Source of the DNA: an uncultured Bacteroidota bacterium
GTDB lineage: Bacteria; Bacteroidota; Bacteroidia; AKYH767-A; JABDAW01
Assembly (NCBI GenBank): GCA_903844645.1
Contig: CAIMUP010000013.1
Coordinates: 1,428-65,427 of the forward strand
DNA: 64,000 nt
Direction: 5' to 3'
Made by a program: the position numbers and the translations under genes. Under the pieces are notes generated by a model. The model did not search any database. It was not told where the DNA came from and worked only from the letters and a program-made list of their open reading frames with translations. Positions 49,506 to 53,853 of this stretch are shown in pieces. Each line of letters opens with the position of its first letter. Within the stretch, counting starts at the first letter, position 1.

Positions 49506-49913
49506 TTGATGCATAAAAACCAGGAATCATTCTCTATTAAAAAGCGATTCAACAGCTTCGGATATGCCTTCAACGGCATTAAAATATTATTCAGAACCGA
49601 ACACAATACTTGGCTACATTTATTCGCTACGGTGGCGGTACTTGCGGCAGGATTTTTCTTCCATATTTCGGTTTTGAGTTGGTTTATGCTCGTTGTCGCC
49701 ATTGCTTTGGTTTGGATTACGGAGGCATTAAATACTGCCATCGAATACCTCGTTGATTTGGTTTCTCCCGAGTACCATCCCTTAGCTAAAAAAACGAAGG
49801 ATATTGCGGCAGCGGCGGTGTTCATCGCCTCCTTTTTTGCATTCATATTAGGAATAATAATAGTGTATCACGAGTGGATTTTACACTATCAAACCATTTG
49901 TTTAGGGCTTTGA
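49506..49913 (+). CDS. dgkA: diacylglycerol/undecaprenol kinase (DgkA family)
   Basis: Three TM segments. Hallmark motif EALNTAIE. The size is about 120 to 135 aa. Confidence 0.75.
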   Translation: MMHKNQESFSIKKRFNSFGYAFNGIKILFRTEHNTWLHLFATVAVLAAGFFFHISVLSWFMLVVAIALVWITEALNTAIEYLVDLVSPEYHPLAKKTKDIAAAAVFIASFFAFILGIIIVYHEWILHYQTICLGL

Positions 49914-49926
49914 AAAGGGAAAAAAG

Positions 49927-50167
49927 CCGACCGGATTTGGGAAAGATGCGGTCGGATATTTCCTTTCTCCGGTCGGATATTTCTTTTTTCCGGTCGGATA
50001 TTTCTTTTTTCCGGTCGGATATTTCTTTTTTCCGGTCGGATATTTCTTTTTTCCGGTCGGATATTTCCTTTTTCCGGTCGGAGATTTCTTTTTTCCGGTC
50101 GGAGATTTCCTGTTTCCGGTCGGAGATTTCCTTTTTCCGGTCGGATATTTCCCGTTACCGACCATTA
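49927..50167. repeat. 21-bp tandem repeat array H, about 11 copies, unit CCGGTCGGATATTTCTTTTTT
   Basis: Units at 49949, 49970 and onward through 50138. Variants are GGAGATTTCC. Confidence 0.95.
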
Positions 50168-50299
50168 ATTTTTGGCTGATTAACGGAAGAAAATATATCT
50201 TTGACCCCTTACCAAAAAAATGAAGCCGCAAAAAGCGATTCCGAAGGACATAAAATGAATGAAACAAAACATAATAGTAAACTTAAAACAGACAGATAA

Positions 50300-51544
50300 A
50301 TGAGAGCACTTGAGAAGAAAATGAAAGCCTATACCGCGCCGGAAGAAGTGAAGGCATTGGGGATTTATCCTTACTTCCGCGAGGTGGGTTCGGGGCAAGA
50401 TACCGAGGTGATGATCGAAGGAAAAAAAGTCCTTATGTTCGGCTCGAACAGCTACATGGGGCTGAATAATCATCCCGAAGTGAAGGCTGCCGCGAAGAAG
50501 GCGATTGATATGTACGGCACGGGATGTTCCGGCTCGCGTTTCTTGAATGGGACATCGGTTATTCACATCGAATTGGAGGAAAAACTGGCGAACTTTGTGG
50601 GCAAGGAAGCGTCCTTGGTTTTCAGTACCGGCTATCAAACAAACCTTGGCGTGGTGGGAACCTTGACGGGTCGGCATGATTATATTATTCTGGATGAATT
50701 GAATCATGCTTCGATTATTGAGGGCAGCAGATTATCGTTTTCGAAGGTCTTAAAATTCAGCCATAATAACATGAATGACTTGGAAGATTTGCTAAAGAAA
50801 TTACCTGCCGATAAGATTAAATTAATCGTTGTAGATGGTATCTTTAGTATGGAAGGCGACATCGCCAAACTCCCTCAAATTATGGCTCTTGCCGCGAAAT
50901 ATGATGCTGCCGTTATGGTGGATGATGCCCATTCATTAGGCGTTCTCGGGAAGACGGGTAAGGGCACGGCAGATCATTATGGTTTGACCGATCAGGTGGA
51001 TATGATTATGGGCACTTTCAGCAAGTCTTTGGCATCCCTCGGGGGCTTCGTGGCGGCGAATGCAGATATTATTAAATACCTTAAGCACCATGCCCGCGCT
51101 TTGATATTCAGTGCAAGCATTCCCCCTGCTTCTGCGGCTACCGCGATGGCGGCTTTGGATATTATTCAGCGTGAGCCGGAACGCATCGTGAACCTTTGGA
51201 AAAATACCCATTACATGATAGCGGAATTAAAGAAAGAAGGCTTCGATTTGGGCATTACCGAGACTCCGATTATCCCAATTTATATTCGCGATAACATGAA
51301 AACTTTTATGTTCACGAAGCGGCTGTTCGATGAGGGGATATTTGTGAATCCTGTGGTTAGCCCTGCCGTGAAAAGCGATTCTTCTTTGATACGAATTTCC
51401 CTCATGGCGACCCATACCAAGGAACAAATTGATAAGACGTTGGAGAAGATTTATATGATTGCAAAGGAACTGGAATTATTCGAATTTCAGGCGACAAATG
51501 CCGGCAATCATTCCAACCATGCTGGCGACGATGATAACTTATAA
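50300..51544 (+). CDS. alpha-oxoamine synthase family PLP enzyme (serine palmitoyltransferase / cysteate-acyltransferase / BioF/Kbl-like)
   Basis: Motifs [15 protein letters not shown] and PLP-lysine [13 protein letters not shown]. The C-terminal tail (...GDDDNL) is encoded by the first units of repeat array I. Confidence 0.8.
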
Positions 51545-51691
51545 GGCAATGATGACGCCATTGCTGGCAATGATGACGCCAACGCCGGCAAAGACGACAA
51601 CTACGCTGGCAAAGATGACGTCTACGCTAGCAAAGACGACAACTTTGCTGGCAAAGATGATAGCTTTGCTGGCAAAGATGACAGCTACGCC
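51503..51691. repeat. 21-bp tandem repeat array I, about 9 copies, unit GGCAAAGATGACNNCTACGCT. It begins inside the 3' end of the preceding CDS.
   Basis: Units at 51503, 51524, 51545 and onward through 51671. The CDS stop codon TAA at 51542 lies within unit 2. Confidence 0.9.
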
Positions 51692-51721
51692 ATCCCAAAT
51701 AACCTTAATAATGATATAATT

Positions 51722-52849
51722 ATGGAAATAACAATCAAAAAAGTCGAAAACGGAGCCGATAAGAAGAAGTTTATTGACTTCGTTCATGATTTATATGCCG
51801 ATGATCCGAACTATGTGCCTGAACTTTACATGGCGCAAAGCGATTTGATGAATCCTAAGAAGAATCCTTTCTTTTGGCATTCCAAGGCGGATCTTTTTCT
51901 TGCTGAACGCGATGGAAAAGTGGTAGGAAGAATCGCCGCCATAAGGAATAATAATTATAATGAATACGCGAAAACCAAAGTCGGCTTCTTCGGGTTCTTC
52001 GATGTTATAAATGATTATGAAGTGGCTAAGAAATTACTCGATACCGCTAACGATTGGATTAAAAAGGAAGGCTTGACGGACATTATAGGACCTACAAATT
52101 TCTCTACCAATGAAACTTGCGGCTTATTAGTAGAAGGTTTGGATTCTGCGCCTGTAATTATGATGACTTATAACAAGGCTTATTACAAAACCTTCTTAGA
52201 TAAATATGGTTTTACTAAGCAAATGGACCTGATTGCATACGTCCTGGACCCGATGGATATGCCGGAAAAGCTATTGCGATTAGCAAAAGGGATTGAGGAG
52301 CGTTTGAAGAGAAGAAACATTACCGTCCGCAAGATAAATATGAAGGATTTTAACAACGAAGTAGCCAAAGTAAAGGAAATTTATAATGCTGCCTGGGATA
52401 AAAATTGGGGTTTTGTGCCGATGACGGATGACGAATTCAAATTCCAGGCTAAGGATATGAAAATGATATTAGATAAAGACTTCGCGTATGTAGCCGAAGA
52501 CAACGGAAAGGTCATCGCGTTCTCATTAACTATTCCGAATGTGAACGAGGTGTTCAAAACCATCAAGCGGGGCAGGTTATTCCCGACGGGGCTGTTAAAA
52601 TTAGTATTAAATAAGAGCAAAATATCCAGCGTACGTGTGATTACATTGGGGGTGTTGGAGGAATATCGGAAGCTGGGTATAGACGTCGTGTTTTATGCTA
52701 AGAACATGGAAACCGCCCAACAGAAAAAACTTAAATATGCAGAGGCTTCCTGGATTTTAGAGAACAATAAGGAGATGAATTCTCCCTTAATTTCCATCAA
52801 TGCGAAGCCTTATAAAACATATCGTATCTTTGAGAAGAAGATAGTATGA
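51722..52849 (+). CDS. GNAT-fold N-acyltransferase-like protein (candidate lipid N-acyltransferase, bCerS-like)
   Basis: 375 aa with an acyl-CoA N-acyltransferase-like pattern in the C-terminal half. Sits between the SPT-like gene and the SDR gene. It overlaps the downstream gene by 4 bp, which indicates an operon. Confidence 0.5.
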   Translation: MEITIKKVENGADKKKFIDFVHDLYADDPNYVPELYMAQSDLMNPKKNPFFWHSKADLFLAERDGKVVGRIAAIRNNNYNEYAKTKVGFFGFFDVINDYEVAKKLLDTANDWIKKEGLTDIIGPTNFSTNETCGLLVEGLDSAPVIMMTYNKAYYKTFLDKYGFTKQMDLIAYVLDPMDMPEKLLRLAKGIEERLKRRNITVRKINMKDFNNEVAKVKEIYNAAWDKNWGFVPMTDDEFKFQAKDMKMILDKDFAYVAEDNGKVIAFSLTIPNVNEVFKTIKRGRLFPTGLLKLVLNKSKISSVRVITLGVLEEYRKLGIDVVFYAKNMETAQQKKLKYAEASWILENNKEMNSPLISINAKPYKTYRIFEKKIV

Positions 52850-53853
52850 AGAAAGTTCTGATTACTGGTGCTAGCGGCTTTGTTGGTAGCTTCTTGGTGG
52901 AAGATGCCTTAAAAAAAGGCTACGAAGTATATGCCGGAATCCGCGGAAGTAGCAGCCGCAAGTATCTTCCTGATGAACGGATTAAATTTTTATCTCTCGA
53001 CTTCGGGAATACCAATCATCTTACCAAAAGTCTTGACGATTTTGCCCAAGAAAATAACGGCGGTTTCGATTTTATTATTCACGGAGCGGGGATTACGAAG
53101 GCAAATAATATTCAGCATTATTACGATGTCAATTATCTTAATACAAAACATTTTGTCGAAGCATTAATTACCACAAAAACGATCCCGAAAAAGTTTATTC
53201 AGGTAAGTTCGCTCGCCGCTTTTGGTCCGGGCAATCCAAAAACATTAGAGCCGATCAATCATACTCATAAGCCGATGCCGGTAAGTAGTTACGGAAAGAG
53301 TAAATTAGTTGCCGAAGAATATTTTGCTACTCTGAATGACTTTCCTTTTATTATTTTTCGCCCCACGACGGTATATGGTCCGAGGGAGCGGGATCTTTTC
53401 ACGGTTTTCCAGATGGTAAATAATGGTTTTGAATTCTATATCGGGAGGAAACCACAGCATCTTACCTTTATTTATGTCAAGGATTTGGTAACGCTGATGC
53501 TGGATTCGTTGGAGAGGGATATTATTAACAAATCGTACTTTGTTTCGGACGGAAAAAGCTATGAATCGAGCCTGTTGAATACTTATATTAAGCAGGGGCT
53601 GAATAAAAAAACCATCAAACTTACGATGCCGGTCGCGGTGGTGAAGGCTTTGGCGTTTACTTTAGAGAAAAGTTTCGGGTTATTTAATCAAATTCCGACC
53701 TTAAATAGTGAGCGGGTGAAAGAATTTGAGAGTACGAATTGGAAAGTATTCACGGATGACCTTTTCTTAGACTTCAATTTCAAACCGGAGTATGATTTGG
53801 AGCGGGGCGTGATGGAAACCATCGCCTGGTATAAGCAAGAAAAGTGGTTGTAA
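52846..53853 (+). CDS. NAD-dependent epimerase/dehydratase family SDR (candidate ketosphinganine/ceramide reductase)
   Basis: N-terminal TGASGFVGSFLV Rossmann motif. Catalytic YGKSK motif. Confidence 0.8.
   Translation: MKKVLITGASGFVGSFLVEDALKKGYEVYAGIRGSSSRKYLPDERIKFLSLDFGNTNHLTKSLDDFAQENNGGFDFIIHGAGITKANNIQHYYDVNYLNTKHFVEALITTKTIPKKFIQVSSLAAFGPGNPKTLEPINHTHKPMPVSSYGKSKLVAEEYFATLNDFPFIIFRPTTVYGPRERDLFTVFQMVNNGFEFYIGRKPQHLTFIYVKDLVTLMLDSLERDIINKSYFVSDGKSYESSLLNTYIKQGLNKKTIKLTMPVAVVKALAFTLEKSFGLFNQIPTLNSERVKEFESTNWKVFTDDLFLDFNFKPEYDLERGVMETIAWYKQEKWL

What the first reader, a model, noticed from the sequence alone, without database searches (positions are those of the whole stretch)
49506..53853. 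Contiguous SPT-like, GNAT-like and SDR-reductase genes resemble a bacterial ceramide (or sulfonolipid) synthesis module
The string dgkA (a lipid kinase), alpha-oxoamine synthase, 375-aa GNAT-fold acyltransferase and NAD-dependent epimerase/dehydratase-family SDR matches the three-enzyme logic of bacterial ceramide synthesis. In that pathway Spt makes 3-ketosphinganine, a GNAT-type bCerS N-acylates it, and an epimerase/dehydratase-family CerR reduces it. The last two genes overlap by 4 bp, and a 21-bp array links the first gene to them. The same fold also serves the cysteate-fatty-acyl transferase of the capnine/sulfonolipid pathway. The substrate could therefore be serine or cysteate.
Basis: partly seen in the sequence, partly recalled or inferred. 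Interest (0 to 1): 0.55.

Follow-up and report, generated by a model that had tools for sequence, protein, structure and literature searches.

The report
Bacterial ceramide synthesis operon (spt-bcerS-cerR)
Three adjacent genes in this uncultured Bacteroidota genome are the known bacterial three-enzyme pathway that makes the ceramide lipid backbone from serine; this is an ordinary new example of a pathway described in 2021-2022, and the neighbouring lipid-kinase gene is not part of it.

Summary
Window 50300-53853 carries three same-strand genes. They are an alpha-oxoamine synthase (414 aa), a 375-aa GNAT protein and a 335-aa extended SDR whose start overlaps the GNAT stop by 4 bp.

- **Synthase:** it is a serine palmitoyltransferase of the Bacteroidota type. 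It passes the NCBIfam equivalog NF047600. It is 62% identical, without gaps, to Sphingobacterium multivorum SPT. It has Ala272 where cysteate acyltransferases have their diagnostic Lys. Serine is therefore favoured over cysteate.
- **GNAT:** it has a tandem-GNAT fold. It is about 35% identical over its full length to E. coli YghO and to the Sphingomonas sphingolipid-locus acyltransferase. The literature equates these with Caulobacter bCerS.
- **SDR:** it belongs with the CerR-type reductases of those loci, though this is the weakest link.
- **Synteny:** among 72 other species with enough flanking DNA, spt lies directly upstream of the GNAT in 56. The SDR lies directly downstream in 47. All three genes are collinear in 44.
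- **dgkA:** it is never adjacent (0 of 80 loci) and is a chance neighbour.
- **21-bp arrays:** they are a genome-wide trait of this lineage.

Verdict: a new member of a known kind, of low to moderate interest.

The parts
50300..51544 (+). spt: serine palmitoyltransferase (PLP-dependent alpha-oxoamine synthase), 414 aa
   Evidence: NCBIfam NF047600 'SerpalmtaseCFB' equivalog scores 684.8 bits against a cut-off of 640. The BioF, Kbl and ALAS models all fall below their cut-offs. The best solved structures are S. multivorum SPT 3a2b/8guh at 541 bits, against cysteate acyltransferase 28eh at 260 and 7u7h at 232. Identity to S. multivorum SPT is 62% over 389 gap-free residues. The PLP lysine is K242, and A272 sits at the SulA-K281 position.
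51563..51690 (.). 21-bp tandem array (6.1 copies) inside the 177-bp spt-bcerS spacer
   Evidence: TRF. The spacer length is identical in three same-species contigs from other metagenomes. No terminator-like hairpin is predicted in the spacer. In other species the spacer is mostly 3-60 bp.
51722..52849 (+). bcerS: bacterial ceramide synthase candidate (YghO-family tandem-GNAT N-acyltransferase), 375 aa
   Evidence: It is 35% identical over its full length (E 2e-77) to the N-acetyltransferase of the Sphingomonas parapaucimobilis sphingolipid locus. It is about 35% identical to E. coli YghO. PMC9386255 lists yghO as the homologue of Caulobacter CC_1154. The AlphaFold model has pLDDT 90, and Foldseek top hits are tandem-GNAT proteins. 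An acyl-CoA motif-A-like YRKLGID lies at residue 315. spt is directly upstream in 56 of 72 species.
52846..53853 (+). cerR: ceramide (3-keto) reductase candidate, extended SDR, 335 aa; its start overlaps the bcerS stop by 4 bp
   Evidence: Pfam PF01370 at 8e-28. TGASGFVG lies at residue 7 and YGKSK at residue 149. It is directly downstream of the GNAT in 47 of 72 species. A profile of GNAT-adjacent SDRs scores the E. coli sphingolipid-locus epimerase at 197.5 bits and the Sphingomonas CerR-position SDR at 160 bits, against at most 129 bits for any PDB chain.
49509..49913 (+). dgkA (prokaryotic diacylglycerol-kinase family): a neighbour, NOT part of the conserved module
   Evidence: Pfam PF01219 at 2.6e-36. 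There is no dgkA within 8 kb of the GNAT in any of 80 loci from other species.
49949..50152 (.). 21-bp tandem array (9.7 copies) in the dgkA-spt spacer; its copy number varies between populations
   Evidence: TRF. The spacer is 386 bp here and 407, 344 and 323 bp in same-species contigs L001-L003. These differ by +21, -42 and -63 bp. The unit repeats the 3' arm plus T-run of a hairpin at about 49927-49955.

Best explanation
Window 50300-53853 is a three-gene operon, spt-bcerS-cerR. It most likely builds the dihydroceramide backbone of sphingolipids in an uncultured member of the Bacteroidota.

- **Step 1 (family membership shown, chemistry inferred):** Spt, a PLP enzyme with Lys242, condenses L-serine with a long-chain acyl thioester to give 3-ketosphinganine. 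The donor is probably acyl-CoA, as for the S. multivorum enzyme, because no dedicated ACP or acyl-ACP synthetase gene is nearby.
- **Step 2 (inferred from homology and synteny):** the tandem-GNAT protein, a YghO/bCerS-family N-acyltransferase, N-acylates the amino group to give 3-oxo-dihydroceramide.
- **Step 3 (inferred):** the extended SDR (CerR type, TGxxGxxG plus YxxxK) reduces the 3-keto group with NAD(P)H to give dihydroceramide.

The acylate-then-reduce order is taken from Caulobacter biochemistry and B. fragilis knockouts. It was not tested here.

The ATGA overlap of bcerS and cerR points to co-transcription and translational coupling of those two genes, and no terminator-like hairpin is predicted in the spt-bcerS spacer. 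dgkA upstream is an unrelated neighbour.
For: - **Spt identity:** the NF047600 equivalog scores above its cut-off. Identity to S. multivorum SPT is 62% without gaps. Catalytic motifs are present, and Ala272 replaces the Lys of cysteate acyltransferases.
- **GNAT:** it is 35% identical over its full length to Sphingomonas and E. coli (yghO) sphingolipid-locus acyltransferases. PMC9386255 lists yghO ECD_02850 with CC_1154 as 'aca', and ECD_02852 with CC_1164 as 'epi'. RefSeq annotates the E. coli neighbour as spt.
- **SDR:** the profile test places proteobacterial CerR-position SDRs (160-197 bits) above every PDB SDR (at most 129 bits).
- **Synteny:** among 72 species with enough flank, spt is upstream-adjacent in 56, the SDR is downstream-adjacent in 47, and all three genes are collinear in 44. 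These include Sphingobacterium, Pedobacter, Mucilaginibacter and Chitinophaga. The same order with overlapping genes occurs in Streptomyces.
- **Pathway order:** B. fragilis delta-cerS accumulates 3-KDS and delta-cerR accumulates keto-dihydroceramide (bioRxiv 10.1101/2023.05.23.541633).
Against: - No lipid or enzyme data exist for this organism.
- I could not align directly to Caulobacter CCNA_01212 or CCNA_01222, because no sequence was in hand and PMC8891067 is not held. The link runs through E. coli and Sphingomonas homologues and the literature.
- The SDR assignment is the weakest. Single-sequence scores to the Sphingomonas (41.9 bits) and E. coli (55.4 bits) CerR-type proteins are no better than to unrelated epimerases in the PDB (44.9 bits). 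Only the profile test and synteny separate them.
- Caulobacter CerR is reported to be periplasmic. This SDR starts directly with the Rossmann motif and shows no visible signal peptide.
- In the nearest other species (L004) the GNAT-SDR pair lacks an adjacent spt.
Confidence: 0.85

Rival explanations
1. Same three enzymes but eukaryote-like order: the SDR reduces 3-ketosphinganine to sphinganine first, and the GNAT then N-acylates sphinganine. This is the Olea-Ozuna model.
For: PMC9386255 and PMC11087976 describe this as a live alternative. Bacteroides also has a classical 3-KDS reductase, BT_0972. Nothing in the sequence fixes the order.
Against: Caulobacter in vitro and knockout data, as summarised in PMC9304779 and PMC11087976, and B. 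fragilis delta-cerR accumulating keto-dihydroceramide, favour acylation first for this enzyme pair.
Confidence: 0.2
2. Sulfonolipid (capnine/sulfobacin) module: the synthase condenses cysteate with an acyl thioester, the SDR reduces 3-ketocapnine, and the GNAT N-acylates capnine.
For: The fold and reaction logic are identical, and many Bacteroidota make sulfonolipids. The N-acyltransferase of that pathway did not turn up in the papers read.
Against: The synthase passes the Spt equivalog cut-off. It scores 541 bits to S. multivorum SPT but only 260 and 232 bits to the solved cysteate acyltransferases. It has Ala272 where all cysteate acyltransferases have the essential Lys281. No cysteate-synthase-like (PALP-fold) gene was found among the 36 larger ORFs scanned in the window, although only 64 kb could be checked.
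Confidence: 0.04
3. dgkA belongs to the module and phosphorylates the ceramide product to ceramide-1-phosphate, giving a four-gene pathway.
For: dgkA is adjacent on the same strand. From my own knowledge, E. coli DgkA phosphorylates ceramide in vitro.
Against: dgkA is adjacent in 0 of 80 loci from other species, including the closest one. It is separated from spt by 386 bp holding a terminator-like hairpin and a copy-number-variable array. The known bacterial ceramide kinase described for Caulobacter (listed) is, to my knowledge and untested here, of a different family.
Confidence: 0.06
4. The synthase is BioF or Kbl, and the neighbours are unrelated housekeeping genes.
For: BioF and Kbl models give strong partial scores of 399-418 bits.
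Against: All are below their curated cut-offs. No biotin or threonine genes are nearby. A true bioF next to bioB and bioA in L004 is only 33% identical to this synthase.
Confidence: 0.01

Closest known systems
Caulobacter crescentus ceramide pathway: Spt (CCNA_01220/CC_1162), bCerS (CCNA_01212/CC_1154), CerR (CCNA_01222/CC_1164)
   Same: The same three enzyme families and the same inferred chemistry: a PLP condensation, a GNAT-type N-acylation and an epimerase-family keto-reduction.
   Different: The Caulobacter locus spans ccna_01212-01226 and also needs a dedicated ACP and an acyl-ACP synthetase. It carries LptF2/G2 transport paralogues. Here there is a bare, compact three-gene operon, and Spt belongs to the Bacteroidota/deltaproteobacterial subgroup rather than the Rhodobacteria subgroup (39% identity to Sphingomonas Spt).
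Sphingobacterium multivorum serine palmitoyltransferase (PDB 3A2B, 8GUH)
   Same: 62% identity, gap-free over 389 residues, with the active-site motifs conserved. Sphingobacterium species carry the same spt-GNAT-SDR operon (L024, L040, L052).
   Different: This is a different, uncultured lineage. The window protein has a C-terminal tail of about 20 residues beyond the aligned region, and a 21-bp array lies between spt and the next gene.
Bacteroides fragilis CerS (BF9343_4218) and CerR (BF9343_4240)
   Same: Knockout-verified Bacteroidota homologues of bCerS and CerR. A Bacteroides finegoldii GNAT of this family is 32.5% identical to the window GNAT.
   Different: In Bacteroides the genes are dispersed. 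The B. finegoldii GNAT sits between a cation antiporter and parE, with no synthase or SDR within the 30 kb read. Here they form one operon.
E. coli yghO-spt cluster (ECD_02850-02854; present in 4068 of 5426 complete genomes)
   Same: YghO is about 35% identical to the window GNAT. The cluster also holds spt and an epimerase-family SDR.
   Different: The E. coli cluster has ACP, a fatty acyl-AMP ligase and LptF/G paralogues, and yghO is divergently placed. Synthase-GNAT-SDR collinearity is absent.
Sulfonolipid pathway: SulA/CapB cysteate acyltransferase with CapC/KCR reductase
   Same: The same alpha-oxoamine synthase fold, followed by keto-reduction and N-acylation.
   Different: The diagnostic Lys281 is Ala here. 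Sequence scores are less than half of those to Spt.

Membership tests
Serine palmitoyltransferase, Bacteroidota (CFB) type | Scores above the curated cut-off of the NCBIfam equivalog model NF047600 | tested here: met
   684.8 bits against a cut-off of 640, covering 3-392 of the protein and 4-393 of the 395 profile positions.
Serine palmitoyltransferase, Bacteroidota (CFB) type | PLP-binding lysine and conserved AOS catalytic residues (His, Asp/His, Arg) | tested here: met
   K242 in GTFSK, NHAS at 135, DDAHS at 208 and LIRIS at 363. All are aligned without gaps to S. multivorum SPT.
Serine palmitoyltransferase, Bacteroidota (CFB) type | Condenses L-serine with a long-chain acyl thioester | not testable with these tools
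   Needs an enzyme assay.
Cysteate acyltransferase (SulA/CapB) | Lys at the SulA-281 position, 30 residues after the PLP lysine; it is Ala in Spt (PMC9304779) | tested here: not met
   Residue 272 (K242+30) is Ala, in FSASIPP. This is identical in register to S. multivorum FSASMTP.
Cysteate acyltransferase (SulA/CapB) | Closest characterised relatives are cysteate acyltransferases | tested here: not met
   28eh scores 260 bits and 7u7h 232 bits, against 541 bits for SPT 3a2b.
BioF / Kbl | Scores above the curated cut-offs of TIGR00858, NF005394 and TIGR01822 | tested here: not met
   398.8 against 426.45, 407.3 against 460, and 334 against 493.
Bacterial ceramide synthase bCerS (CC_1154 / YghO family) | Full-length homology to the N-acyltransferase of experimentally defined sphingolipid loci | tested here: met
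   35% identity and E 2e-77 over 375 of 383 aa to the Sphingomonas locus GNAT. About 35% identity and 241 bits to E. coli YghO. The equivalence of yghO and CC_1154 comes from PMC9386255. A direct alignment to CCNA_01212 was not possible.
Bacterial ceramide synthase bCerS (CC_1154 / YghO family) | Genomic association with spt | tested here: met
   spt is directly upstream in 56 and directly downstream in 2 of 72 species. The GNAT tree follows taxonomy, with the window inside spt-linked clades.
Bacterial ceramide synthase bCerS (CC_1154 / YghO family) | N-acylates 3-ketosphinganine or sphinganine | not testable with these tools
   Needs an assay or a knockout.
Ceramide reductase CerR (CC_1164 type, epimerase/dehydratase-family SDR) | Extended-SDR cofactor and catalytic motifs | tested here: met
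   TGASGFVG at residue 7, SS at 121-122 and YGKSK at 149. Pfam PF01370 at 8e-28.
Ceramide reductase CerR (CC_1164 type, epimerase/dehydratase-family SDR) | Closer to CerR-position SDRs of known sphingolipid loci than to other extended SDRs | tested here: met
   Profile A4 scores the E. coli SDR at 197.5 bits and the Sphingomonas SDR at 160.0 bits (neither was in the profile), against a best PDB chain of 129.2 bits. The margin is moderate. Single-sequence scores do not separate them.
Ceramide reductase CerR (CC_1164 type, epimerase/dehydratase-family SDR) | Periplasmic location, as reported for Caulobacter CerR | tested here: inconclusive
   No N-terminal signal peptide is visible, and the Rossmann motif begins at residue 7. 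The Caulobacter paper was not seen to report a signal peptide for CerR in the passages searched, and it finds no predicted transmembrane regions in CerR or bCerS.

The most novel reading that the evidence does not exclude
The copy-number-variable 21-bp array between dgkA and spt spans 7 to 11 units across four metagenome populations whose proteins are otherwise identical. It may act as a population-level tuning element for expression of the sphingolipid operon, by changing terminator read-through or promoter context. It would be one instance of an undescribed, lineage-specific system of period-21 arrays that occupy roughly a third of the intergenic spacers in this genome.
Probability: 0.1. Interest if true: 0.55.

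Novelty: new member of a known kind. Interest (0 to 1): 0.25.

Why it matters
It adds an uncultured freshwater or soil Bacteroidota lineage to the predicted sphingolipid producers. It also refines a statement in the literature. The three ceramide genes are said not to be co-located in sphingolipid-producing Bacteroidota (PMC11334938). Here that dispersal was seen in a Bacteroides genome. Among the Sphingobacteriales, Chitinophagales, Saprospirales and Cytophagales sampled, the compact spt-bcerS-cerR operon is the usual arrangement, and the same order occurs in Streptomyces. This gives a simple genomic marker for annotation, because both the GNAT and the SDR are currently named only 'hypothetical', 'GNAT family' or 'NAD-dependent epimerase' and have no NCBIfam model. 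No new biochemistry is implied.

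Tried and rejected
- **Too-diverse query alignment:** the genome-collection scan with a 34-sequence alignment failed because no stretch was conserved enough. It was repeated with 12 closer sequences.
- **Stankeviciute et al. 2022 (PMC8891067):** not held, so Caulobacter sequences and its supplementary tables were unavailable. The link to bCerS and CerR was made instead through E. coli yghO, the Sphingomonas loci and PMC9386255.
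- **Single-sequence PDB search with the GNAT:** nothing below E 0.5. The profile search found only generic motif-A matches.
- **NCBIfam:** it has no bCerS or CerR model. Even the E. coli, Sphingomonas and Bacteroides proteins hit nothing specific.
- **Single-sequence phmmer for the SDR:** it does not separate CerR-type from other epimerases, so a profile test was needed.
- **Sigma-70 promoter scan:** uninformative, with 12 sites against 13.3 expected. From my own knowledge, Bacteroidota also use a different promoter consensus.
- **Cluster-member look-up of distant GNAT relatives:** it gave only generic names, such as GNAT or RimI-like.
- **Literature searches:** nothing useful on operon organisation in Sphingobacteriia or on 21-bp intergenic arrays.
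- **Rejected readings:** dgkA as a module member (0 of 80 loci), and BioF/Kbl.

Full report
**1. Observation**

The ORF scan confirms four + strand genes at the stated coordinates:
- dgkA, 49506-49913. The second codon is ATG at 49509.
- An alpha-oxoamine synthase, 50300-51544 (414 aa).
- A 375-aa protein, 51722-52849.
- A 335-aa protein, 52846-53853.

The last two overlap by ATGA. Tandem Repeats Finder finds the 21-bp array between dgkA and the synthase (49949-50152, 9.7 copies).

Pfam assigns DAGK_prokar (2.6e-36), Aminotran_1_2 (1.8e-59), a weak Acetyltransf_1 match (6.7e-07) and Epimerase (8.1e-28) to the four products. The rest of the window is ordinary Bacteroidota chromosome, with gyrA, ffh, T9SS-tailed proteins, SprB repeats and ribBA. 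Identical proteins occur on metagenome contigs up to 126 kb, so the organism is uncultured.

**2. The synthase is Spt and uses serine**

It passes the NCBIfam equivalog 'serine palmitoyltransferase' NF047600 (684.8 bits, cut-off 640). The BioF, Kbl, ALAS and other Spt-clade models all fall below their cut-offs.

Against solved structures it scores as follows:
- 541 bits to Sphingobacterium multivorum SPT.
- 285-288 bits to Sphingomonas SPT.
- 260 bits to a cysteate-C-fatty acyltransferase (28eh).
- 232 bits to 7u7h, which I take, without having checked the entry, to be the Alistipes SulA structure described in PMC9304779.

The alignment to S. multivorum SPT is gap-free over 389 residues at 62% identity.

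Radka et al. [quoted passage not shown] SulA has an essential Lys281, 30 residues after the PLP lysine, where Spt has Ala. Here the PLP lysine is K242 and residue 272 is Ala, within FSASIPP. A genuine bioF in the related locus L004, next to bioB and a class-III aminotransferase gene taken to be bioA, is only 33% identical to this synthase. No PALP-fold cysteate-synthase candidate is among the 36 larger ORFs scanned in the window. That covers only 64 kb.

**3. The GNAT is in the bCerS (YghO) family**

It has no NCBIfam model and no sequence match in the PDB. It nevertheless belongs to a very large, well-conserved family:
- More than 6,400 hits in the 90%-identity clusters, with about 57-63% identity across many Bacteroidota.
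- 7,670 representative clusters, reaching Leptospiraceae, Streptomyces and Planctomycetota at about 36% identity.

An AlphaFold model (pLDDT 90, pTM 0.88) has a tandem-GNAT fold. Its best Foldseek hits are the clavulanate tandem GNAT, glucosamine N-acetyltransferase, MAB_4324 and MshD. The acyl-CoA motif-A region lies in the C-terminal half.

A tblastn against annotated plasmid and chromid records gave the decisive comparators.
- In Sphingomonas parapaucimobilis, a 35%-identical N-acetyltransferase (E 2e-77, full length) lies in a locus containing an NAD(P)H-binding SDR, ACP, an alpha-oxoamine synthase, lptF, lptG and a desaturase.
- In E. coli the homologue is YghO. It sits beside a fatty acyl-AMP ligase, an epimerase-family SDR, ACP, the synthase and lptG/lptF.
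- RefSeq names that E. coli synthase spt, and 4,068 of 5,426 complete E. coli genomes carry the cluster.

The literature ties these loci to Caulobacter.
- PMC9386255 lists 'aca: CC_1154, yghO ECD_02850, Swit_3908 ...' and 'epi: CC_1164, ECD_02852, Swit_3897 ...' as the dihydroceramide genes.
- A 2026 preprint describes the Caulobacter sphingolipid locus as ccna_01212-01226, with lptG2 and lptF2 at 01213 and 01214. It shows homologous operons in S. wittichii and E. coli UTI89.
- B. fragilis homologues of CCNA_01212 and CCNA_01222 were verified by knockout.

I could not obtain the Caulobacter sequences, so the assignment is homology through these intermediates.

**4. The SDR is CerR-type, with less certainty**

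It has the extended-SDR motifs: TGASGFVG at residue 7 and YGKSK at residue 149.

Pairwise BLAST to the Sphingomonas and E. coli CerR-position SDRs gives 25% and 22% identity (E 2e-23 and 5e-26). In phmmer those proteins score 42 and 55 bits, no better than the top unrelated PDB epimerase at 45 bits.

I therefore built a profile from 19 GNAT-adjacent SDRs, covering Bacteroidota, Zixibacteria, Acidobacteria and Streptomyces. It scores the E. coli protein at 197.5 bits and the Sphingomonas protein at 160.0 bits, and neither was in the profile. The best of all PDB chains scores 129.2 bits, and typical sugar epimerases score 75-110 bits.

All of these SDRs, like the window protein, have HpnA as their nearest NCBIfam model. 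Together with the synteny below, this supports CerR membership at moderate strength.

**5. Synteny**

A scan of one genome per species with the GNAT returned 80 loci. tblastn with the window proteins gave the following for the 72 loci with enough flank:

| Arrangement relative to the GNAT | Loci (of 72) |
|---|---|
| spt directly upstream, same strand | 56 |
| spt directly downstream | 2 |
| spt elsewhere within 8 kb | 3 |
| spt absent | 11 |
| SDR directly downstream | 47 |
| SDR nearby | 5 |
| All three collinear | 44 |

- The two loci with spt downstream are Cyclobacteriaceae, ordered GNAT-spt-SDR.
- One of the three 'elsewhere' loci, L005, is really adjacent, because the tblastn segments overlap.
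- The SDR usually starts 3-15 bp after the GNAT.
- The collinear species include Sphingobacterium, Pedobacter, Mucilaginibacter, Chitinophaga, Taibaiella, Saprospiraceae, Zixibacteria and an Acidobacteria MAG.
- A Streptomyces linear plasmid has the same overlapping synthase-GNAT-SDR order.
- In Bacteroides finegoldii the GNAT stands alone. This agrees with the published remark that the genes are dispersed in sphingolipid-producing Bacteroidota.
- A neighbour-joining tree of the GNATs follows taxonomy. The window sits inside spt-linked clades, and most of the unlinked cases are scattered among linked relatives rather than forming one separate paralogue clade.
- dgkA was found next to the GNAT in none of the 80 loci.

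**6. Mechanism**

- **Shown:** family membership of Spt, homology of the GNAT and SDR to sphingolipid-locus enzymes, and operon conservation.
- **Inferred:** Spt makes 3-ketosphinganine from serine and acyl-CoA. The acyl-CoA donor is suggested by the absence of ACP and acyl-ACP synthetase genes, which the Rhodobacteria-type systems have, and by the S. multivorum precedent. The GNAT N-acylates this product and the SDR reduces the 3-keto group. The order follows the Caulobacter and B. fragilis data.

The opposite order remains possible.

**7. Comparison and novelty**

This is the known bacterial ceramide pathway in its compact Bacteroidota/Streptomyces arrangement. The only mildly new point is that the compact operon is the usual arrangement in the non-Bacteroidales Bacteroidota sampled here, contrary to a generalisation in the literature. 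Neither bCerS nor CerR has a curated annotation model. I score it as a new member of a known kind, with interest 0.25.

**8. Side observations**

Period-21 arrays with locus-specific units occupy about a dozen intergenic spacers in the window. They also occur in the closest other species (L004) but not in more distant relatives.

The array upstream of spt varies by exact 21-bp steps among four populations whose proteins are otherwise identical. The spacer is 386, 407, 344 and 323 bp. The array inside the operon does not vary. The upstream unit repeats the 3' arm and T-run of a terminator-like hairpin that follows dgkA.

Public gene calls on the same-species contigs miss dgkA. They call an opposite-strand ORF instead.

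Noticed in passing
window 1859-2044, 4111-4341, 8711-8919, 28847-29093, 37951-38213, 41289-41426, 43869-44152, 49949-50152, 51563-51690, 54568-54722, 58018-58151, 61985-62200: About a dozen intergenic spacers each hold a tandem array with period exactly 21 bp (or 42 or 63 bp). Each array has a different unit sequence, and all lie between ORFs. The same trait is seen in the nearest other species (L004: 322-563, 5661-5972, 10386-10598) but not in L005-L009, L014 or L024. A literature search found no description of it.
   Followed up: partly
window 49913-50300 compared with L001 8168-8579, L002 5994-6342 and L003 8252-8579: The array upstream of spt is polymorphic in exact 21-bp steps between metagenome populations whose four proteins are 100% identical. 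The spacer is 386, 407, 344 and 323 bp. The array inside the operon (the 177-bp spacer) is invariant.
   Followed up: partly
window 49927-50152: The unit of the dgkA-spt array (CCGGTCGGATATTTCTTTTTT) is the descending arm plus T-run of a hairpin (GCCGACCGG ... CGGTCGG) that follows the dgkA stop. The array looks like an amplified half-terminator.
   Followed up: no
window 49346-49846 (- strand) against 49509-49913 (+ strand): Public gene calls on the same-species contigs L001-L003 annotate a 159-aa opposite-strand ORF with no Pfam hit and miss dgkA. The + strand ORF matches PF01219 at 2.6e-36.
   Followed up: yes
L085 (E. coli PN43) 2343-10122; E. coli genome search: E. coli carries a yghO / fatty acyl-AMP ligase / epimerase-family SDR / ACP / spt / lptG-lptF-paralogue cluster. 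At least 80% of it is present in 4,068 of 5,426 complete genomes. This is already discussed in PMC9386255 and in a 2026 preprint.
   Followed up: partly
L004 6192-10126: In the closest other species the GNAT-SDR pair is preceded by a CoA-disulfide-reductase-like protein with a rhodanese domain instead of spt. A true bioF-bioB-bioA group lies further upstream. spt must be elsewhere in that genome or lost.
   Followed up: partly
L016 14881-15864; L068 6425-7480: Two loci lack an SDR directly after the GNAT. Each still has a CerR-profile SDR (177 bits) a few kb away, which suggests rearrangement rather than loss.
   Followed up: no
window 54979-55500 (-) and 48636-49475 (+): The flanking genes encode a 173-aa and a 279-aa protein, both with signal-peptide-like N-termini and no Pfam or NCBIfam match. 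Whether they are conserved next to the operon was not examined.
   Followed up: no
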